Notes: generated by a model not told the origin, from the letters alone. A stretch of DNA of 38,455 bases from a virus (IMGVR_UViG_2713896790_000012); one strand, 5' to 3'. Positions 1,063 to 36,903 are shown, numbered from the stretch's first letter. Translations and numbers: made by a program.

Positions 1063-1707
1063 GCCCGGTGACGCCAGAGGGAGTGTGTGCGTCGCNNNNN
1101 NNNNNNNNNNNNNNNNNNNNNNNNNNNNNNNNNNNNNNNNNNNNNNNNNNNNNNNNNNNNNNNNNNNNNNNNNNNNNNNNNNNNNNNTCATCCTCACGAT
1201 GAAAGTCCGGCATCTCAATCCCCGCCAGATGATAAGCATCCCGGAACAGCGTGTAACAGTCCGTCGCCCCGTGCTCAAAGCGCCGCCCGGTAAGATGCGG
1301 CACACAGCGGAATTTATGAATCTCACCCCGGCAGACCAGCCACCAAGGCAAATCGCTCTGCACCTGCAGCCGCCTGTCAGCCTCACTCAGCCAGGGCAGA
1401 CCACCGGGGTGGCTGTGGACCAGCGCCACAATCTCACNNNNNNNNNNNNNNNNNNNNNNNNNNNNNNNNNNNNNNNNNNNNNNNNNNTCACTCAGCCAGG
1501 GCAGACCACCGGGGTGGCTGTGGACCAGCGCCACAATCTCACCCTGCATCTCTGCCCGCAGCCAGTCCTCCGGCGACATCCGGAAATACGCCTCCGGCTC
1601 ACCGGAGATATTCACGCAGGGAAAATATCTTTCCCCTTCCGGCGTTCTCACCACGAAGCCGCACGACTCCGCTGGCGCACATCGCCGGGCGTGCGCCAGA
1701 ATCGCTG
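999..1707 (-). CDS. K: Tail assembly protein K (MPN/JAB + NlpC/P60), 5' end lost in N gap, interrupted by two further gaps
   Basis: AILAHARRCAPAESCGF...EIVALVHSHPGGLPWLSEADRRLQVQSDLPWW and, in a second frame after the 1096-1187 gap, RRTHSLWRHRAWHASAFTGIYNDLAAASTFV then TAA (stop 999-1001); matches lambda gpK from memory. Confidence 0.7.
1096..1187. other. Assembly gap / masked run (92 N) inside gene K
   Basis: Run of N read directly. Confidence 0.99.
1438..1487. other. Assembly gap (50 N) flanked by an identical 57-bp duplication
   Basis: tcactcagccagggcagaccaccggggtggctgtggaccagcgccacaatctcac appears on both sides. Confidence 0.99.
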
Positions 1708-20364: not shown

Positions 20365-20911
20365 TTACTTTAAACACTGTTCGGTTATGTATTGCTGAGC
20401 ACCTTCAAGTTGGGCCTGCATCATTACCAGTCGTTCCCGGAGGGTGAAATAATCCCGTTCAGCGGTGTCTGCCAGTCTGGGGGAGACTGCATTATCCACG
20501 CTGGAGGCGATGGTGGCTTCACGCACGGACGGACAGACTGCTTTGATGTGCAACCGACGACGACCAGCGGCAACATCATCACGCAGAGCATCANNNNNNN
20601 NNNNNNNNNNNNNNNNNNNNNNNNNNNNNNNNNNNNNNNNNNNGACCAGCGGCAACATCATCACGCAGAGCATCATTTTCAGCTTTCGCATCAGCTAACT
20701 CCTTCAGGTATTTTGCATCGAGTGCAGCAACATCACGCTGGCGTATCTGCATGTCAGTAATGATTGCGGTCGCCTGGTTGAGTTTTTCCTTCACATTATC
20801 GCGTTGCGCTTTGTAGGTAATGGCATTATCACGGTAATGATTAACAGCCCATGACAGGCAGACGATGATGCAGATAACCAGAGCGGAGATAATCGCGGTT
20901 ACTCTGTTCAT
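20365..20911 (-). CDS. rzpR: Rz i-spanin, interrupted by a 50-N gap with duplicated flanks
   Basis: [38 protein letters not shown]...[20 protein letters not shown]...FTLRERL... matches lambda/Rac Rz from memory; start overlaps endolysin stop (ATGA). Confidence 0.8.
20424..20691 (-). CDS. rzoR: Rz1 o-spanin lipoprotein embedded in Rz (+1 frame), interrupted by the same gap
   Basis: [16 protein letters not shown] [gap] [45 protein letters not shown]; lipobox LVVVGC; proline-rich. Confidence 0.7.
20594..20643. other. Assembly gap (50 N) in Rz/Rz1 flanked by an identical 32-bp duplication
   Basis: gaccagcggcaacatcatcacgcagagcatca appears on both sides. Confidence 0.99.
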
Positions 20912-22396: not shown

Positions 22397-22471
<75 letters not shown>

Positions 22472-22474
22472 ATA

Positions 22475-22550
<76 letters not shown>

Positions 22551-23449: not shown

Positions 23450-23736
23450 AAATAACCTTCCTTTCTCCAGATTTCTTGCGTGCGAAAAACACCTTCTGCA
23501 TGCATCAGGCGTAATTCTTCTTTGGTGTAATCGCTGGTTTTTACCCGCCCGTCGATTAAATCGTGGCATGAGTTACAGGCAATCGCTGCCTGCATATCGT
23601 GTGGTTTTGTCGCTGTTCCGCACGTCCCTGCCAACCTGTAATGCGCCAGCACAGAAGTTTCGGGATTGTGATTGCAGTAGCCAGGGATTCTGACCTGGCA
23701 CATCTGGCCCCGCGCCGCTTTACGTAAATCCACCAT
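23446..23736 (-). CDS. DUF1364-type Cys-rich nin-region protein (YbcO-like)
   Basis: 96 aa, MVDLRKAARGQMCQVRIPGYCNHNPETSVLAHYR...CNSCHD... resembles remembered DLP12 YbcO. Confidence 0.55.
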   Translation of the reverse strand: MVDLRKAARGQMCQVRIPGYCNHNPETSVLAHYRLAGTCGTATKPHDMQAAIACNSCHDLIDGRVKTSDYTKEELRLMHAEGVFRTQEIWRKEGYL

Positions 23737-24335
23737 TACGCAAACTCCAGTAGCTGCGCGGCCACATTTTCGACTTGTTCCGGAGAGGAAAATTTACGGA
23801 ACAGAATCCAGTTCCACAGCACATTCAGTACAGATTTATAAACCTGCTGAAACTCGGTTTCGTCCATATTCGCAAACGCGATGGATTTCGCCCGACGCCC
23901 ACGACTACCATCAGGATAAAAATGCTCGGTGTAAAATCCGGCCTGAATGGTTACCCACTCGCGGAAAGCGTCAAATGATTTGAGCAATGCCATATCCCGG
24001 GTTCTGCGTGTCGCAACGGTATTCAGATATTGTTCCGCGGCATCACTCAGAGCTGGCGTATGTTCCCTGCCTACTGATTCACACAGGTAATCAACGAAGC
24101 CGAACACCATTTCTCGTTCGCGAGGTGTGATCGCCCCACCGACCGGAGTCCAGTAATCGAATCCCAGTTGCAGGAGTTTGAAAAAACGCTTGTGGAATGC
24201 GTAGTTACGCACACGCTTAAAGTCTGCGTGTATCCACTCACCTATTTTGATTTGATGCAGAAAATCGCAACTCTCCGGCGTCGCCGGGAGAAGTAAACCA
24301 GAAGAAGTTTGTTTGACCAGTTGTATATGCGCCAT
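23736..24335 (-). CDS. Conserved lambdoid nin-region protein, function unknown
   Basis: 199-aa ORF co-oriented with and overlapping the next gene; family uncertain. Confidence 0.45.
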   Translation of the reverse strand: MAHIQLVKQTSSGLLLPATPESCDFLHQIKIGEWIHADFKRVRNYAFHKRFFKLLQLGFDYWTPVGGAITPREREMVFGFVDYLCESVGREHTPALSDAAEQYLNTVATRRTRDMALLKSFDAFREWVTIQAGFYTEHFYPDGSRGRRAKSIAFANMDETEFQQVYKSVLNVLWNWILFRKFSSPEQVENVAAQLLEFA

Positions 24336-24608
24336 TTCTCAATCTCTCGATGGCGCAGTGCAGCAGATGCCAGTTGTTCAGGCTGACGTATGAAGTATAA
24401 ATAAACTGGCTCCAGTGTAAAGTCCCCACCTTAATGGAATAAAAACCAAACAACAGATTGCCGGGATAAAAACAACGCTTATTATTAAAAGCGGTTAAAC
24501 AAATTAAATTTTAATGTTATGCAAATCTACCAGATCACCATAATATCTCATTTGAAAACCACTGAAATAACAATCCTATCAAGATCAATCATATTAAGGT
24601 GAGTAAAT

Positions 24609-24695
24609 ATGGAAAACAACAAATCTGCACATTACGCTCCTTTTTTATCTGTAATACTTTTTGTTTTATGCTGTGCGTGGGCATTATTTTTATAA
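24609..24695 (+). CDS. Candidate 28-aa hydrophobic small protein
   Basis: ATG at 24609 preceded by AAGGTGAG SD; encodes MENNKSAHYAPFLSVILFVLCCAWALFL*; below the ORF-track size cutoff. Confidence 0.3.
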   Translation: MENNKSAHYAPFLSVILFVLCCAWALFL

Positions 24696-24801
24696 AAATA
24701 TTTACAGATAAAATAAACTCGCCAAAACTGGTTAAGTGTGGGTGCGTTGAGGATGCATAATACATCAGAGGTGGCGAGGGATTTCTCCCTCGCCCGGTCT
24801 C

Positions 24802-24909
24802 TTACTCCTCAGGTTCGTAAGCTGTGAAGACAGCGACCTCCGTCTGCCCGGTTCGGATTCGTACCTCGCAGAGGTCTTTCCTCGTTACCAGTGCCGTCAC
24901 TATGACGGT
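24802..24909 (-). CDS. Hok/Gef-family type I toxin, C-terminal 35 codons; N-terminus hidden in N gap
   Basis: Minus-strand translation from 24909: TVIVTALVTRKDLCEVRIRTGQTEVAVFTAYEPEE* (stop 24802-24804) matches remembered Gef/HokC (...VVAALVTRKDLCEVHIRTGQTEVAVFTAYESE). Confidence 0.75.
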   Translation of the reverse strand, partial: TVIVTALVTRKDLCEVRIRTGQTEVAVFTAYEPEE

Positions 24910-24959
24910 NNNNNNNNNNNNNNNNNNNNNNNNNNNNNNNNNNNNNNNNNNNNNNNNNN
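24910..24959. other. Assembly gap (50 N) covering the 5' end of the hok-like gene
   Basis: Run of N read directly. Confidence 0.99.
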
Positions 24960-25128
24960 CAGATTAATGTTAAGCGTCTTGCAGGACGCGTAATGTTAAC
25001 TGGGGCTTTTCTCTATCTGCCTTTTGGTGTTCATGCCTGAGGCAGATAGCCTCAAGCACCCGCAGCAATTTTACTTAACTCCCGCTACCTCGCCAATATG
25101 AAATCAATAAGAAAGGTGCTCCATAAAA

Positions 25129-25815
25129 TCACTCCTTCTCTTCTTTACCGTAGTGGAGTTGACCAATTTTGATAAGAGGGCGTCCCTGAGATTTGCGGTG
25201 TAGATTGGTATCGCGCAGAGAATACACACAGCCACAATATTCCTGCTGATAGAATTTTTCGCGCTTGCTGATTTCAATCATGCGGGACGAGCCGCCCTGC
25301 TTGCGCCAGTTATAATCCCAGTACACCATGCCCGGATAATGCGCGACGGCTCGCCGCCCACAGTCGTTAACCTGCTGCATATTTTTCCAGCGTGAAATGC
25401 CCAGTGAACTGCTGATCACACTGAAACCATTTTCAGCAGCGTACAGCGCTGTCCGCTCAAAACGCATGTCAAAACACATGGTACAACGGATCCCCCTCTC
25501 GGGCTCCCATTCCATTCCTTTGGCACGTTCAAACCAGTTGTCTGTGTCGTAATCAGCATCAATAAATGGCACGCCGTGTTGTTCAGCAAAGCGAATATTC
25601 TCATCCTTACGAATTAAATACTCTTTCTGAGGATGAATGTTCGGGTTGTAGAAAAAGATGGTATAGTCGATTCCCGAGGCCTGAAGCGCCTCCATCACTT
25701 CACCGGAACATGGAGCACAGCAAGAGTGCAGTAGTAGTTTGTTTGCCCCGTTTGGGAGCTCCAATTTAGGCCGTTTGAAATCAGCAATAGTCATAAATAT
25801 TTTTATTGGGGTCAT
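25129..25815 (-). CDS. QueH-like (DUF208) putative epoxyqueuosine reductase homolog
   Basis: N-terminal [14 protein letters not shown] and C-terminal YCGCVYSL cysteine motifs, about 220 aa, consistent with remembered DUF208/QueH pattern; start codon uncertain (25815 or 25794). Confidence 0.5.
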
Positions 25816-32337: not shown

Positions 32338-35300
32338 ATGAGCACAAAACCACTCTTCCTGTTACGGAAAGCGAAAAAATCATCCGGTGAACCTGACGTC
32401 GTCCTGTGGGCAAGTGACGATTTTGAATCGACCTGTGCCACTCTGGACTACCAGATCGTTAAGTCAGGTAAAAAACTGAGCAGCTATTTTAAAGCTGTTG
32501 CCACGAATTTTCCTGTCGTTAATGACCTGCCCGCTGAAGGTGAGATCGATTTTACCTGGAGTGAACGCTATCAACTCAGCAAAGACTCCATGACATGGGA
32601 ACTAAAACCGGGAGCAGCACCAGACAACGCTCACTATCAAGGCAATACCAACGTCAACGGCGAAGACATGACTGAGATTGAGGAGAATATGCTACTCCCA
32701 ATTTCTGGCCAGGAACTGCCCATTCGTTGGCTTGCTCAACACGGCAGCGAAAAACCGGTAACGCACGTTTCACGCGGCGAACTCCAGGCATTACACATTG
32801 CACGGGCTGAAGAACTACCGGCTGTTACTGCCCTGGCTGTTTCCCACAAAACCAGCCTGCTCGACCCGCTGGAAATTCGCGATCTCCACAAACTGGTTCG
32901 TGACACTGACAAAGTTTTCCCTAATCCTGGTAATTCAGACTTGGGACTGTTAACTGCTTTTTTCGAAGTATACCTGAACGCTGACTACACCGATCGAGGA
33001 CTGCTGACAAAAGAGTGGATGAAGGGTAATCGTGTTTCACGCATCACTCGCACGGCTTCCGGTGCTAATGCTGGCGGCGGGAACCTCACCGATCGCGGCG
33101 AAGGTTTCGTCCACGATCTTACGTCACTGGCGCGCGACGTAGCCACTGGCGTACTGGCCCGTTCAATGGACGTGGACATCTATAACCTTCATCCGGCACA
33201 CGCTAAACGCATTGAGGAAATTATCGCTGAAAATAAACCGCCCTTTTCTGTTTTCCGCGACAAATTCATCACCATGCCTGGCGGGCTGGATTATTCTCGC
33301 GCCATCGTGGTTGCGTCCGTGAAAGAAGCACCAATTGGGATCGAGGTCATCCCCGCGCACGTCACAGAATATCTGAACAAAGTACTGACTGAAACCGATC
33401 ATGCCAACCCTGATCCGGAAATCGTGGATATTGCCTGCGGTCGCTCCTCTGCCCCGATGCCGCAGCGTGTAACAGAGGAGGGAAAACAGAATGATGAAGA
33501 AAAACCGCAACCATCTGGCGCAATGGCAGATGAACAGGCAACGGCTGAAACAGTGGAACCGGATGCAACTGAACATCATCAGGACACGCAGCCGCTGGAT
33601 GCTCAGTCACAGGTAAATTCTGTTGATGCAGACAAATTACTGGCTGCCTATCGCGGAGAATTTGTTGAAGGGATTAGCGACCCGAATGATCCGAAATGGG
33701 TTAAGGGGATCCAGACCCGCGATTCTGTGTACCAGCATCAGCCAAAAACGGAACAGAACGACCGAAAATCGGAACAAAACGGCCAAAATTCGCGACAAAA
33801 TGAACCAGAAGCGCAACAGGAACCGGAAAAAGTCTGCGCCGCCTGCGGTCAGACCGGCGGCAGTAACTGCCCTGACTGTGGCGCGGTGATGGGCGACGCA
33901 ACATACCAGGAAACATTCGATGAAGAGAATCAGGTTGAAGCTAAGGAAAAAGATCCGGTGGAAATGGAAGGCGCTGAACATCCGCACAATGAGAATGCTG
34001 GCAGCGATCCGCATCGTGATTGCAGTGATCAAACTGGTGAAGCGTCAGCTCCTGTAGCAACTGAAATCATGTGGCCGTCATATTTCGAGCCAGGCCGCTA
34101 TGAAAACCTCCCGAACGAGGTTTATCACTCCGCCAACGGAATAAGCAGCACGATGCTGAAGGATGCCCGTATCAGCCTGATGTATTACCACGGGCGGCAC
34201 ATTGCCGGAACTATTCCGAATGAGGAAAGTGATGCACTGCTGCGTGGGAGGATCATTCACAGCTATGTTCTGGAAACGGATAAATTCGCTGATGAATATG
34301 CCATTCCGGTACCGGTTCCTGAATATGTGGTTACTACTTCTAACGAACTGATCGCCATCATTAAAAAACACAATGCCAGTCTGCCAGCACTGATGACACC
34401 AGAGCAGATGAAAGAGTGGATCGAAAGCTACAACAGCACTCTTATACAGCCACTGTCTGTAAGTGCTGGGGCCGAAGAAACAGGCATCCTTTACGGTTCG
34501 CTTCCGGTGGAATTTCGGCGTATCCCTGAGGGGGAAAAACACACAGCATCAGCAATGAAAGCCTGTATTAAAGAATACAACGCAAGCCTCCCTCCTCTGT
34601 TGAAAACCAGTGGAGCACGGGAGCAACTTCTGGATCAAATTGAAACTGTAGACCCAGAACTGGCAAAAAAAGAACGTGCTAAATCTTTGCCTTACAACAT
34701 CAGTGGCACGAAAGAGCAATTAACCGAAATCGCACGGAAAATTCGCCCGGAACTGGTGACACTGGAGGACTGGCAAAAACGCCAGCAAGAAGAAAACGCC
34801 GGGAAAACGTTTATCAGTCCGGATATGTATGAACAGGCAAAAAATATTCACGCGGCACTGCAAAACAATACTGATGCGGCAAGGCTACTCAACCACCCGG
34901 ATCGCAAATCTGAAATCAGCTATTTCGGGTTTGATGAAGAAACCGGGCTGGAAATCAGGGTCCGTCCTGATATCGAAATCCGGCTGCCATACGAAAGCAT
35001 TTGCGCCGACGTGAAGTCAGTCAGCCTCGGTTATGTGCGGCAGGAACGACTTAAAGATCGCCTGCACCGTGAAATTATTGAGCGTGATTATCACCTCAGC
35101 GCCGCAATGTATTGCGATGTGGCAAACCTGGAAAAATTTTTCTGGATCTTCGTCAACAAAGATGCTGGCTATCACTGGGTGGCTGTCGTGGAAGCCTCGC
35201 AGGAACTCCTGGAACTTGGTCGACAGGAATATCGCCGGACGCTACGCCAGATAAACGAAGCCCTGGAGACAAACAACTGGCCAGCACCGATTACCGAAAG

Positions 35301-35361
35301 TTATACCGACGAATTAAACGACTTTGATCTTCGTCGTCTTGAAGCACTGCATCTGGCTTAA
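32338..35361 (+). CDS. recE: Exodeoxyribonuclease VIII (RecE-like), long 1007-aa variant
   Basis: N-terminus [26 protein letters not shown]... and C-terminal nuclease-type domain ([15 protein letters not shown]..., IRVRPDIEI..., ..[13 protein letters not shown]) fit remembered RecE; stop overlaps next gene start (TAATG). Confidence 0.7.
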
Positions 35362-36464
35362 TGGAGAACCTGACCATGCAAAATACCAATATCATCACGA
35401 CAGAGCAGACACCAAATACCATTTCTGCCAGTAACACTATTTTTAACGTTCAGGCGTTGACGCAACTTCAGGCAGTAGCCAGGTTGATGTCACAGGCCAC
35501 CGTCACAGTTCCCGATCACCTTCGCGGAAATCCTGCCGACTGCATGGCAATCATCATGCAAGCCATGCAATGGGGCATGAACCCCTACGCTGTGGCTCAG
35601 AAAACACACCTGGTAAACGGAGTTCTGGGTTATGAAGCACAACTGGTTAACGCTGTGATCTCTAGCTCAAGTGCAATTGTAGGCCGCTTCCATTACAAGT
35701 ACGAGGGAGACTGGGAGAAATGCTCTCGCACCCGAGTGGAGACCGTTAAGAAAACGGCCAAAGGAGGCGGAATCTATGAGAAAAAAGAAACGATCCCATG
35801 TTGGACCAGTGAAGATGAGTATGGTCTATCAGTTCGAGTTGGTGCAGTTCTTCGCGGTGAAAGTGAGATTACCTGGGGAGAACCGGTGTTTCTTTCCAGC
35901 GTGATTACGCGTAATTCTCCTTTATGGACCTCAAACCCGAAACAACAGCTCGCCTATCTGGCGTTGAAATACTGGGCTCGCCTTTATTGTCCTGACGTCA
36001 TCCTGGGCGTGTATACTCCGGACGAACTGGAAGAGCCACAGGAAAAAATCATCAATCCTGTGCCGGTACAGAATTATAGCGAGGTAAGCGAGCAGCGAAC
36101 AGAAACCATCGAACAGCGTATTGACGAAGCGTGGATTGATGAATTCCGGCAGCGTGTCGAAAGCGCGGCCACGACTGAGGAAACCACTGCATTACGCCAA
36201 GAGATAGAGGATCAGAAAAACCAGATCGGCGAATTCTTTGCCGAGCTTAAAGGAAAAGTGGTTCGGCGTCATCACCGTCTCAATGCTATTGCCAGTATCG
36301 AGAAGATGATAAATGACCTTCCTTCATCAGGTGATCCAGAAGCAGAACAAAAATTTACTGCTCTGGAAAATACGCTGAATGCTGCCCGGCCACATCTGGG
36401 TGAATTATATGAGGCGTATAAAACGACACTGACAGATATGAAACCAGAATATATCGGCTCCTGA
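35361..36464 (+). CDS. Single-strand annealing protein, RecT/Red-beta superfamily-like, partner of RecE
   Basis: 367 aa, translationally coupled to recE; ADCMAIIMQAMQWGMNPYAVAQKTHLVNGVLGYEAQLVNAV resembles the lambda Bet core (DAQFIALLIVANQYGLNP...); does not match the remembered K-12 RecT sequence. Confidence 0.45.
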   Translation: MENLTMQNTNIITTEQTPNTISASNTIFNVQALTQLQAVARLMSQATVTVPDHLRGNPADCMAIIMQAMQWGMNPYAVAQKTHLVNGVLGYEAQLVNAVISSSSAIVGRFHYKYEGDWEKCSRTRVETVKKTAKGGGIYEKKETIPCWTSEDEYGLSVRVGAVLRGESEITWGEPVFLSSVITRNSPLWTSNPKQQLAYLALKYWARLYCPDVILGVYTPDELEEPQEKIINPVPVQNYSEVSEQRTETIEQRIDEAWIDEFRQRVESAATTEETTALRQEIEDQKNQIGEFFAELKGKVVRRHHRLNAIASIEKMINDLPSSGDPEAEQKFTALENTLNAARPHLGELYEAYKTTLTDMKPEYIGS

Positions 36465-36527
36465 TATTGACTTTGGCGGTGTAGCCTCACCGCCATCACA
36501 AAATTTTATTTTATGAGAGAAAAGACA

Positions 36528-36722
36528 ATGCGGTATGAAAAAGTCAAACCATGCCCTTTTTGTGGTTGTCCATCAGTAACGGTGAAAGCCATTTCAGGAT
36601 ATTACCGCGCGAAGTGTAACGGATGCGAATCCCGAACCGGCTATGGTGGAAGTGAAAAAGAAGCACTCGAACGATGGAATAAACGAACCACTGGAAATAA
36701 TAATGGAGGTGTTCATGTATAA
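36528..36722 (+). CDS. ralR: Restriction alleviation protein Lar/RalR
   Basis: MRYEKVKPCPFCGCPSVTVKAISGYYRAKCNGCESRTGYGGSEKEALERWNKRTTGNNNGGVHV* matches remembered Lar; start chosen at second ATG (better SD). Confidence 0.8.
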   Translation: MRYEKVKPCPFCGCPSVTVKAISGYYRAKCNGCESRTGYGGSEKEALERWNKRTTGNNNGGVHV

Positions 36723-36903
36723 AATTACCGCCACTATTGAAAAGGAAGGTGGCACTCCTACTAACTGGACAAGGTACTCAAAAACAAAATTAACCAAATC
36801 AGAATGCGAAAAAATGCTCTCAGGTAAAAAAGAAGCAGGCGTTTCCAGAGAGCAGAAAGTAAAACTGATAAATTTTAATTGCGAGAAACTTCAGTCGTCG
36901 TGA
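36715..36903 (+). CDS. ydaC: YdaC-like small protein
   Basis: MYKITATIEKEGGTPTNWTRYSKTKLTKSECEKMLSGKKEAGVSREQKVKLINFNCEKLQSS*; ATG overlaps ralR 3' end by 8 nt; an upstream alternative start exists at 36643. Confidence 0.5.
   Translation: MYKITATIEKEGGTPTNWTRYSKTKLTKSECEKMLSGKKEAGVSREQKVKLINFNCEKLQSS

What the first reader, a model, noticed from the sequence alone, without database searches (positions are those of the whole stretch)
24700..25128. Gef/Hok-type type I toxin locus whose 5' half is hidden by an N gap
The C-terminal 35 codons of a Hok/Gef toxin are unambiguous on the minus strand. The structured GC-rich stretch at 24740-24800 that initially looked like a small RNA is its 3' UTR. 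Where present, the mok frame, hok start and sok antisense promoter lie in or just beyond the gap at 24910-24959, so whether the toxin is intact and regulated cannot be decided from this assembly.
Basis: partly seen in the sequence, partly recalled or inferred. Interest (0 to 1): 0.4.

Follow-up and report, generated by a model that had tools for sequence, protein, structure and literature searches.

The report
Prophage hokD/sok toxin locus, gap-split
This is an ordinary, already annotated hokD-type hok/mok/sok toxin-antitoxin cassette in a Rac-like E. coli prophage, and the run of N that hides its start is an arbitrary scaffold spacer standing for about 116 bases that are intact in the closest complete genomes.

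Summary
The minus strand at 24805-24909 encodes the last 35 codons of HokD, identical to WP_000813254.1 (Pfam HOK_GEF E=1.2e-17). The 50 N at 24910-24959 cut the gene.

The Ns are not length-true. Two other N runs in the window separate contig ends that overlap exactly by 55 and 32 bp. Six complete E. coli genomes with 99.8-99.9% identical flanks carry 116 bp at this position. That segment holds three bases of the mok SD, the mok ATG, the Sok promoter, the hok SD and ATG, and codons 1-16.

- hok promoter, 25068-25096
- the 5' leader, which matches Rfam RF01794 (24961-25061)
- the tac box (25050-25061) and its 3' partner fbi (24740-24752)
- the anti-SD ucb
- the 3' two-thirds of the Sok gene
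- the 3' protective hairpin
- the TadA-editable TACG

End-pairing and leader helices are supported by folding (z=-7.6) and by covariation in 27 homologues. Unlike K-12 hokD, this copy keeps its leader. The closest studied relative is hokW-sokW of Stx phage Sp5.

Already known. Low interest.

The parts
25068..25096 (-). Putative hok/mok mRNA promoter, TTGGCG-17 nt-TAAAAT. It lies in the 67-nt spacer after the queH stop.
   Evidence: Promoter scan, (the same site in the surrogate). The -10 hexamer ends 7 nt before the first base of the Rfam leader match. This is a consensus match plus position; it has not been mapped experimentally.
24961..25061 (-). hok mRNA 5' leader, nt 1-101. It contains tac (25050-25061), the 5' hairpin, ucb/anti-SD AGCCCC (25002-25007) and the Sok-target hairpin.
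   Evidence: Rfam RF01794 'sok', 60.9 bits against a gathering score of 59, E=2.7e-11, model positions 1-83 of 157. The model is in hok-sense orientation. On the gap-free surrogate it matches 1-157 at 119.6 bits.
25050..25061 (-). tac (translational activator) box GGGUGCUUGAGG, at the 5' end of the mRNA.
   Evidence: It pairs with fbi in both the MFE and the centroid fold of the 418-nt reconstructed mRNA (pair list). This helix is 95.2% paired across 27 homologues, with one compensatory pair, G:C to A:U in 5 sequences.
24960..25010 (+). The visible 3' two-thirds of the Sok antisense RNA gene: a long stem-loop plus the GGGGCUUUUCUC tail. Its 5' tail and promoter are in the gap.
   Evidence: It is the complement of leader nt 52-102. 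The antisense strand folds into a 15-bp hairpin, -25.1 kcal/mol, z=-3.5. The start and end are inferred from the R1 paradigm, not mapped.
24910..24959 (.). 50-N scaffold spacer. In the closest genomes it stands for 116 bp, which contain the last three bases of the mok SD (G|AGG), the mok ATG, dcb, the Sok promoter TTGCCT-17-TAACCT on the opposite strand, the hok SD AGGAG, the hok ATG and codons 1-16 (MKQQKAMLIALIVICL).
   Evidence: The arbitrary nature of the spacers is shown.
24802..24909 (-). hokD codons 17-51 plus the TAA stop (24802-24804).
24816..24819 (-). TACG motif at Tyr47 (codon TAC, 24817-24819). This is the TadA A-to-I editing site that recodes Tyr to Cys.
   Evidence: Read directly from the sequence. 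TACGA is present in 130 of 130 hok loci examined, and TTACGAA is invariant in alignment A3. Editing of hokD was reported in PMC5630033 and PMC12214031. Editing at this copy was not tested.
24773..24794 (-). 3' UTR stem-loop GGCGAGGGA-GAAA-UCCCUCGCC. It corresponds to the terminal hairpin of the processed, active hok mRNA, which acts as a barrier to 3' exonucleases.
   Evidence: Fold at -21.5 kcal/mol, z=-4.5. Compensatory changes appear across homologues, 94-97% paired (helices 5-6). The role is inferred from R1 mutagenesis (PMC9841398).
24740..24752 (-). fbi (fold-back inhibitory) box CCUCAACGCACCC, complementary to tac.
   Evidence: It is conserved in K-12 hokD, in the hokW-type locus and, collinearly, in the R1-type locus.
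24708..24737 (-). Weak hairpin (24717-24737) followed by the U-rich tract UUAUUUUAU. This is the probable but degraded transcription terminator and 3' end of the full-length mRNA.
   Evidence: Hairpin as predicted. It failed the terminator scan. Relatives have CCCGCUUCGGCGGG+U5 at this position; the window differs from that at 3 stem positions.

Best explanation
What it is. Window 24708-25096 (minus strand) is one hokD-type hok/mok/sok type I toxin-antitoxin cassette. It sits as a small self-contained module between queH and a DUF1367 gene in the early-right region of a Rac-like lambdoid prophage of E. coli. The 50 N are a scaffold spacer. They replace about 116 bp, and that segment is most probably intact.

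How it works. The steps below follow the R1 hok/sok and Sp5 hokW-sokW paradigms. None of them was tested on this copy.
1. A constitutive promoter (25096-25068) makes a mok-hok mRNA of about 420 nt.
2. In the full-length RNA, the 5' tac box pairs with the 3' fbi box. The ucb box then sequesters the mok Shine-Dalgarno, so the RNA is neither translated nor bound by Sok, and it accumulates as a stable pool.
3. Slow 3' trimming back to the stem-loop at 24773-24794 removes fbi. tac then refolds onto ucb, which frees the mok SD and the Sok target.
4. The unstable Sok antisense RNA is about 65 nt long. It is made from a promoter inside the hidden segment and runs into 24960-25010 on the + strand. It pairs with the activated mRNA, blocks mok translation (and therefore the coupled hok translation), and triggers RNase III decay.
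5. When Sok supply stops (loss of the element, a transcription block, or prophage induction), the reserve mRNA is translated. The 51-aa Hok peptide inserts into the inner membrane and collapses the membrane potential.
6. TadA can edit the TACG at Tyr47 to a Cys codon. This supplies the second cysteine, which has been linked to toxicity in HokB.

What is shown here. The sequence identity, the positions of all elements outside the gap, the tac/fbi complementarity, and conservation and covariation of the helices.

What is inferred. Transcription starts and ends, RNA processing, Sok action, toxicity, and the content of the gap in this particular genome.
For: - Protein: 35 of 35 visible residues are identical to annotated HokD, and the Pfam HOK_GEF hit is E=1.2e-17.
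- Gap: the flanks are 99.8-99.9% identical to 6 complete genomes. Each of them has a 116-bp segment and an uninterrupted hokD CDS.
- Spacer artefact: exact 55-bp and 32-bp overlaps across two other N runs, and 216, 94 and 116 bp missing at the other three.
- Leader: the Rfam RF01794 hit in the window covers model positions 1-83 at 60.9 bits. The full model (1-157) scores 119.6 bits on the gap-free surrogate.
- Promoter: TTGGCG-17-TAAAAT, correctly placed.
- Fold: the MFE and centroid folds of the reconstructed mRNA recover tac/fbi end pairing and ucb/SD pairing; z=-7.56, with 0 of 100 shuffles folding as well.
- Covariation in 27 non-redundant homologues: 90.9% of cells are paired against 38-45% when partners are slid; 15 pairs change on both sides against 3-7 in the slid controls; 0 of 500 shuffles reach the observed score.
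- Census: 74 of 77 prophage (IMG/VR) hokD loci with enough flanking sequence have both tac and fbi.
- Collinearity with the R1-type plasmid hok locus: tac, ucb, dcb, hok SD, TACG, 3' hairpin and fbi all align in order.
- The hok locus of a 933W-type Stx2 phage differs by 1 nt within the hidden 116 bp and encodes a protein 46/51 identical. hokW-sokW of Sp5 is experimentally a type I TA (PMC8621323).
- The canonical mechanism and its element names are taken from PMC9841398.
Against: - The start codons, the hok SD, most of the mok SD and the Sok promoter cannot be read in this assembly.
- The Sok promoter in the surrogate (TTGCCT-17-TAACCT) is below the threshold of the consensus scan. It is assigned only by its position relative to dcb and to the R1-type locus.
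- No canonical intrinsic terminator follows fbi in this lineage.
- Chromosomal hok loci with intact elements failed to show post-segregational killing in earlier work, as summarised in bioRxiv 10.1101/2025.08.07.668861. Activity of this copy is therefore not guaranteed.
- The covariation structure was derived from one of the aligned sequences, which inflates the percentage of paired cells.
Confidence: 0.9

Rival explanations
1. The locus is disrupted in this particular genome. On this reading the assembly broke here because an IS element, a rearrangement or an indel lies between the leader and codon 17, so the toxin is a pseudogene.
For: Short-read assemblies commonly break at IS copies. IS elements are associated with hok loci: IS1 sits next to hokD in strains S171-1 and EC20-72C-1. 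K-12 hokA, hokC and hokE are described as inactivated by insertion elements (PMC12214031).
Against: A simple insertion would leave the two flanks abutting in the reference. Instead, 116 bp of ordinary sequence are missing. The IS1 in S171-1 lies downstream of hokD, not in the hidden segment. All five N runs fall in segments shared among lambdoid prophages, and two of them are false gaps. This points to repeat-fragmented contigs that were joined mechanically. All 8 genomes that cover at least 80% of the query have an intact annotated hokD.
Confidence: 0.07
2. It is an unregulated relic like K-12 hokD (relF) in Qin: a hok ORF without its own promoter, mok, Sok or tac, expressed if at all by read-through.
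For: The protein is identical to K-12 HokD, and the 3' UTR including fbi is shared.
Against: In K-12, similarity starts only at the hok SD, and everything upstream is relE. Here the promoter, tac, ucb and Sok body are present beyond the gap. The full set is present in the gap-free relatives.
Confidence: 0.02
3. The GC-rich structured stretch at 24740-24800 is an independent small RNA rather than part of the hok transcript.
For: It contains a strong local hairpin.
Against: No Rfam family matches it on either strand. It starts 7 nt after the hok stop. Its downstream box is exactly complementary to the mRNA 5' end 320 nt upstream, and it covaries with that end. The same arrangement is seen in the R1-type hok locus.
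Confidence: 0.01

Closest known systems
hokD loci of lambdoid prophages as annotated by NCBI PGAP (for example E. coli strain 190, NZ_CP020520.1, WP_000813254.1) and the hok/mok annotation in 'Escherichia phage Rac' MN652886.1
   Same: The flanks are 99.9% identical to strain 190, with the same neighbours (queH, DUF1367) and the same Rac-type prophage (racR, kilR, recET, ralR, intR next to ttcA). The Rac phage record annotates both hok and mok at the equivalent place.
   Different: Nothing detectable apart from the N spacer. No annotation seen in these records includes Sok or the RNA elements.
hokW-sokW of Sakai prophage 5 and 933W-type Stx2 phages (PMC8621323)
   Same: It is a prophage-borne cassette with the same architecture. 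The DNA of the module is roughly 94% identical, with a single difference inside the hidden 116 bp. The proteins are 46/51 identical. The mok ATG is in frame and gives a 70-codon ORF. Experimentally, HokW is toxic, sokW made from its own promoter neutralises it, and mitomycin C induction depletes sokW and raises HokW.
   Different: The C-terminal tail differs (VFTAYEPEE against VFVDYESEK). The -35 region, the 3' flank and the host prophage (Rac-like against Stx2 phage) also differ. I did not verify that the Stx2 phage I locus I aligned is base-for-base the Sp5 locus.
hokD (relF) of the Qin cryptic prophage, E. coli K-12
   Same: The 51-aa protein is identical. The hok SD, the 3' hairpin and fbi are the same.
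   Different: The K-12 copy lacks the promoter, tac, ucb, mok start and Sok region, and relE abuts the hok SD. It also has an intact terminator hairpin, which is degraded in the window.
hok/sok (parB) of plasmid R1 and other IncF plasmids
   Same: The elements are collinear (tac, 5' hairpin, ucb, mok SD, dcb overlapping the Sok promoter, hok SD, TACG, 3' hairpin, fbi) and the overall mRNA length is similar. The mechanism is as described in PMC9841398.
   Different: HokW, which is 46/51 identical to HokD, shares only 44% protein identity with R1 Hok according to PMC8621323. Here mok is 57 nt upstream of hok and in frame; in the R1-type locus it is 58 nt upstream and out of frame. The Sok-target hairpin is longer. 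The element is a prophage rather than a plasmid.

Membership tests
Hok/Gef toxin family (Pfam PF01848) | A peptide of about 50 aa with an N-terminal transmembrane helix and the conserved TRKxLCE...EVA.F..YE C-terminal domain. | tested here: met
   The visible 35 residues score 63.7 bits (cut-off 22), E=1.2e-17, over profile positions 12-42 of 42. The full surrogate protein scores 82.9 bits. NCBIfam Hok-family models hit but below their curated cut-offs.
Hok/Gef toxin family (Pfam PF01848) | A complete ORF with a start codon and SD in this genome. | tested here: inconclusive
   Codons 1-16, the ATG and the SD lie under the N run. They are present in all 6 genomes with at least 99.8% identical flanks.
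hok/sok type I TA locus (Rfam RF01794; Gerdes model) | A conserved hok mRNA leader / Sok region. | tested here: met
   RF01794 scores 60.9 bits (at or above the 59-bit gathering score), covering model positions 1-83 and cut only by the gap. The gap-free surrogate scores 119.6 bits over the full model.
hok/sok type I TA locus (Rfam RF01794; Gerdes model) | Long-range 5' tac / 3' fbi end pairing in the full-length mRNA. | tested here: met
   Both boxes are outside the gap (25050-25061 and 24740-24752). They form 12 bp with one bulge. The pairing is recovered in the MFE and centroid folds. It is 95.2% paired in 27 homologues with one compensatory pair.
hok/sok type I TA locus (Rfam RF01794; Gerdes model) | ucb (anti-SD) pairing with the mok SD, and dcb downstream. 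| tested here: inconclusive
   ucb AGCCCC is visible at 25002-25007. The SD is cut after its first G, and dcb is hidden. In the surrogate, ucb/SD pairs are predicted and are invariant or compensated. The Rfam consensus shows tac/ucb and SD/dcb stems.
hok/sok type I TA locus (Rfam RF01794; Gerdes model) | A mok reading frame overlapping hok. | tested here: inconclusive
   It is hidden in the window. In the surrogate the ATG lies 57 nt upstream and in frame, giving a 70-codon ORF. The same holds in 66 of 77 IMG/VR loci.
hok/sok type I TA locus (Rfam RF01794; Gerdes model) | A cis-encoded Sok antisense RNA with its own promoter. | tested here: inconclusive
   The hairpin and tail of the antisense gene are visible (24960-25010). 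The promoter and 5' tail are hidden. The surrogate has TTGCCT-17-TAACCT at the position of dcb, where PMC9841398 places pSok, but the consensus scan does not call it.
hok/sok type I TA locus (Rfam RF01794; Gerdes model) | A stable 3' stem-loop that ends the processed mRNA. | tested here: met
   24773-24794, z=-4.5, with compensatory changes.
hok/sok type I TA locus (Rfam RF01794; Gerdes model) | Toxicity of Hok, neutralisation by Sok, and activation after a transcription stop. | not testable with these tools
   This needs experiments. It has been done for hokW-sokW (PMC8621323) and for HokD overexpression (bioRxiv 10.1101/2025.08.07.668861).
TadA-edited hok mRNAs | A Tyr encoded by TAC within TACG at the position aligned to Cys46. 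| tested here: met
   TACG at 24816-24819. It is conserved in 130 of 130 loci. Whether editing occurs at this copy cannot be tested here. K-12 hokD is edited at 6%.

The most novel reading that the evidence does not exclude
Nothing about the hok cassette itself looks new. Two readings remain that the evidence does not exclude.

1. This lineage has lost the canonical terminator after fbi through three stem substitutions. The hok mRNA 3' end, and hence the timing of fbi removal and toxin activation, may therefore be set differently, for example by read-through into the AT-rich spacer or by phage antitermination at induction.

2. The unannotated 28-codon hydrophobic ORF at 24609-24695 is convergent with hokD, conserved, and has an antisense promoter-like site. 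It may be a second, undescribed small membrane-toxin module that shares the terminator region with hokD.
Probability: 0.1. Interest if true: 0.35.

Novelty: already known. Interest (0 to 1): 0.08.

Why it matters
The finding matters little for discovery. hokD-type loci are annotated in thousands of E. coli genomes (4769 of 5426 complete genomes match part of this kilobase), and their enrichment in prophages has been described.

It has practical value in three ways:
- It shows that N runs in this scaffold are arbitrary spacers, so features next to them should be judged by comparison with closed genomes.
- It shows that the Rfam 'sok' model reports the hok-sense strand.
- It shows that this prophage copy, unlike the K-12 textbook hokD, keeps the full regulatory leader. 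That makes it a reasonable candidate for the lysis-assisting role shown for hokW-sokW.

Tried and rejected
- Terminator scan on the window and on the surrogate: no hit. Only a weak hairpin plus U tract was found by folding.
- Promoter scan for Sok on the surrogate: the expected antisense promoter is below threshold. The only other hit (TTAACA-18-TATGCT, sense strand, inside the leader) is at the level expected by chance, 0.9 per region.
- Weak Rfam hits in the AT-rich spacer (Phe_leader, E=0.42; mir-7360, E=0.37), and a + strand 'sok' hit of 19 bits. I rejected all three as chance.
- Local fold around the TACG site in isolation: not more stable than shuffles (z=+0.86). I therefore make no claim about a TadA-type hairpin.
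- IS insertion as the cause of the gap: I checked the IS1-bearing strain, and its IS lies downstream of hokD.
I replaced it with tblastn against phages (4 unannotated hits) and a local tblastn over the fetched loci (5 variants, all intact).
- One script failed on a file name. I replaced it.

Full report
**Observation.** I read 24300-25600 on both strands. On the minus strand, 24805-24909 translates to TVIVTALVTRKDLCEVRIRTGQTEVAVFTAYEPEE, followed by TAA at 24802-24804. This 35-residue fragment alone hits Pfam HOK_GEF at E=1.2e-17. The N run is exactly 24910-24959.

**What the gap is.** The window has five N runs: one of 92 N and four of exactly 50 N. I compared the window with the closest complete genome, E. 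coli strain 190 (NZ_CP020520.1).
- The flanks of the runs at 1438-1487 and 20594-20643 overlap in the reference. Within the window itself, the last 55 and 32 bases before those runs are repeated exactly after them.
- At the other three runs the reference has 216, 94 and 116 bp.

The Ns are therefore fixed-length spacers placed between contigs of a fragmented assembly, not measured gaps. All five lie in segments shared among lambdoid prophages (tail assembly genes, a lysis gene, hok). Several public contigs a few hundred bases long consist of little more than a hok locus, and other fetched loci stop within a few bases of hokD. Repeat-induced fragmentation is therefore the likely cause. That last point is inference.

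**Closing the gap by comparison.** A 1-kb query around the locus matches 4769 of 5426 complete E. coli genomes in part. Eight genomes cover at least 80% of it, and six of those are 99.8-99.9% identical. In each of these six the matched span is 1067 bp for the 1001-bp query, so 116 bp stand where the window has 50 N. PGAP annotates an uninterrupted hokD there (WP_000813254.1). The window is identical to strain 190 at every aligned base on both sides.

The 116 bp read (hok sense): AGGCTCAATCTATGCTGAACACATGTAGGTTAGCCTCTTACGTGCCGAAAGGCAAGGAGAAGCAGGCTATGAAGCAGCAAAAGGCGATGTTAATCGCCCTGATCGTCATCTGTTTA. This segment contains:
- the last three bases of the mok SD (GAGG);
- the mok ATG;
- dcb;
- the complement of a TTGCCT-17-TAACCT promoter for Sok;
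- the hok SD and ATG;
- codons 1-16.

**What is visible beyond the gap.**
- Rfam's 'sok' model (RF01794) matches 24961-25061 on the minus strand at 60.9 bits against a gathering score of 59, over model positions 1-83 of 157.
- The printed alignment shows that this model is written in hok-mRNA sense. It begins GGGUGCUUGAGG (tac), and its consensus structure pairs tac with AAGCCCC (ucb) and the mok SD with dcb.
- On the gap-free surrogate the same model matches end to end at 119.6 bits. The window's low score is therefore due only to the truncation.
- A TTGGCG-17-TAAAAT promoter lies at 25096-25068. Its -10 hexamer ends 7 nt upstream of model position 1.
- The antisense strand of 24960-25010 folds into the long Sok hairpin.

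**RNA architecture.** The reconstructed 418-nt mRNA folds with its first 12 nt paired to CCUCAACGCACCC near the 3' end (window 24740-24752) in both the MFE and the centroid structure. ucb pairs with the mok SD. The z-score is -7.56.

I fetched 53 genomic and 80 IMG/VR hok loci, reduced them to 27 sequences less than 96% identical to one another, spanning Escherichia, Kluyvera, Pseudocitrobacter, Erwinia and unnamed Enterobacteriaceae genomes, and counted pairs for the leader helices, the end pairing and the 3' hairpin.
- 90.9% of cells are paired, against 38-45% when partners are slid by 1-3 columns.
- 15 pairs change on both sides, against 3-7 in the slid controls.
- No shuffle out of 500 reaches the observed covariation score.
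- The tac/fbi helix is mostly invariant, which is uninformative, but it has one compensatory G:C to A:U pair in five Kluyvera sequences.

One caveat applies. The structure came from one member of the alignment, which favours it on the percentage of paired cells.

In a census of the fetched loci, 74 of 77 IMG/VR loci with enough flank carry both tac and fbi. In 66 the mok ATG is 57 nt upstream and in frame with hok. All 130 loci have TACGA at the conserved Tyr codon.

**Comparison with known systems.**
- *K-12 hokD (Qin).* It shares the protein and the 3' UTR, but similarity begins only at the hok SD, and relE occupies the place of the leader. The window's copy is the complete form.
It aligns collinearly, element by element. 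The element names and the mechanism are from PMC9841398.
- *933W-type Stx2 phage hok locus.* It differs from the surrogate by one base within the hidden 116 bp, and it encodes a 70-codon mok-hok frame whose Hok part is 46/51 identical to HokD. For the Sp5 locus hokW-sokW, toxicity, neutralisation by sokW from its own promoter, partial dependence on RNase III and Hfq, loss of sokW and appearance of HokW after mitomycin C, and a two-fold contribution to phage release have been shown (PMC8621323).
- *Database coverage.* A Rac phage record annotates hok and mok at the equivalent position, and 80 sequenced phages carry the module. A recent survey reports that hok is enriched in prophages.

**Context.** The window is a Rac-type prophage: racR, kilR, recET region, ralR with the RalA sRNA, intR next to ttcA, trkG, the lysis cassette, and head and tail genes. 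The cassette sits between queH (25129-25815) and a DUF1367 gene (23736-24335). It is co-oriented with the early-right genes and has the look of a moron with its own promoter. Homology between prophages typically starts near the -10 hexamer and ends just after fbi and the terminator.

**Mechanism and role.** I commit to the canonical hok/sok mechanism set out in the best explanation above. For the biological role I consider two options. One is assistance of lysis at prophage induction, by analogy with hokW-sokW. The other is the addiction and abortive-infection role described for plasmid hok/sok. I cannot discriminate between them here. Chromosomal hok loci tested earlier did not mediate post-segregational killing.

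**TadA editing.** TadA editing of the TACG at 24816-24819 (Tyr47 to Cys) is documented for K-12 hokD at a low level. The motif is invariant across the family. The isolated local fold gives no support for a special hairpin.

**One small peculiarity.** Where most relatives have CCCGCUUCGGCGGG followed by a U run after fbi, the window and strain 190 differ from it at three stem positions. Only a weak hairpin plus UUAUUUUAU remains. I did not find evidence that this matters.

**Verdict.** The feature is an already known, routinely annotated hokD/mok/sok cassette. The only uncertainty, the content of the gap in this genome, is an assembly matter. I put the probability that the hidden segment is the canonical intact 116 bp at about 0.85-0.9.

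Noticed in passing
window 24609-24695 (+), with 24588-24615 (-): There is an unannotated 28-codon ORF, MENNKSAHYAPFLSVILFVLCCAWALFL, with an AAGGTGA SD 7 nt upstream. It is convergent with hokD. Start, stop, length and SD are kept in 5 DNA variants down to 77% identity, with several changes confined to third codon positions. It also occurs in a prophage that has no hok next to it (EBJ003). It is unannotated in the 12 RefSeq E. coli genomes listed out of 1377 that match, and in 4 phage records. A promoter-like site on the opposite strand (TTTCCA-16-TATGAT) would give an antisense RNA over its 5' UTR. It may be a small membrane protein or a toxin-like gene.
   Followed up: partly
window 1438-1487 and 20594-20643 (also 1096-1187, 1708-1757): The N runs are arbitrary spacers. 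The 55 and 32 bases before these two runs are repeated exactly after them, so the joined contigs really overlap. The other runs stand for 216 and 94 bp in strain 190. ORFs called across these runs are artefacts.
   Followed up: yes
window 36721-36899 (-): There is a full-length RalA sRNA (Rfam RF02694, 215 bits), the antitoxin of the RalR type I system. The same prophage therefore carries a second type I toxin-antitoxin pair.
   Followed up: no
window 22400-22550 (-): Two tRNA genes lie upstream of the lysis cassette of the prophage. They are annotated tRNA-Gly and tRNA-Thr in strain 190.
   Followed up: no
window 25129-25815 (-): A complete QueH (epoxyqueuosine reductase, Pfam E=1.9e-65) is carried as prophage cargo directly upstream of the hok promoter. 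Only 8 of 5426 genomes share the queH-hokD junction, whereas the hok module itself is nearly ubiquitous.
   Followed up: no
window 32640-36474: The recE/recT region matches strain 190 only in patches (85-96%), and 34057-36474 has no megablast match. The window has ORFs of 1007 and 367 aa there, so the recombination module appears to be a different allele.
   Followed up: no
L018 (Acinetobacter idrijaensis, 275-bp contig), L023 (Xanthomonas pisi, 431-bp contig), L056 (a MAG): E. coli-type hokD sequence, 96-100% identical at the protein level, turns up on tiny contigs of assemblies labelled as non-enterobacterial organisms. This is most likely contamination.
   Followed up: no
L029 2271-2669 and 2833-3232; L037; L046: Tandem duplicated hok modules a few hundred bases apart occur in an unnamed Enterobacteriaceae genome (MGYG-HGUT-00110) and in Photorhabdus genomes.
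   Followed up: no
Rfam RF01794 as matched at window 24961-25061 (-): The Rfam family named 'sok antitoxin' is modelled in the sense orientation of the hok mRNA leader (tac to hok ATG). Its hits therefore report the toxin strand, not the antitoxin strand.
   Followed up: yes
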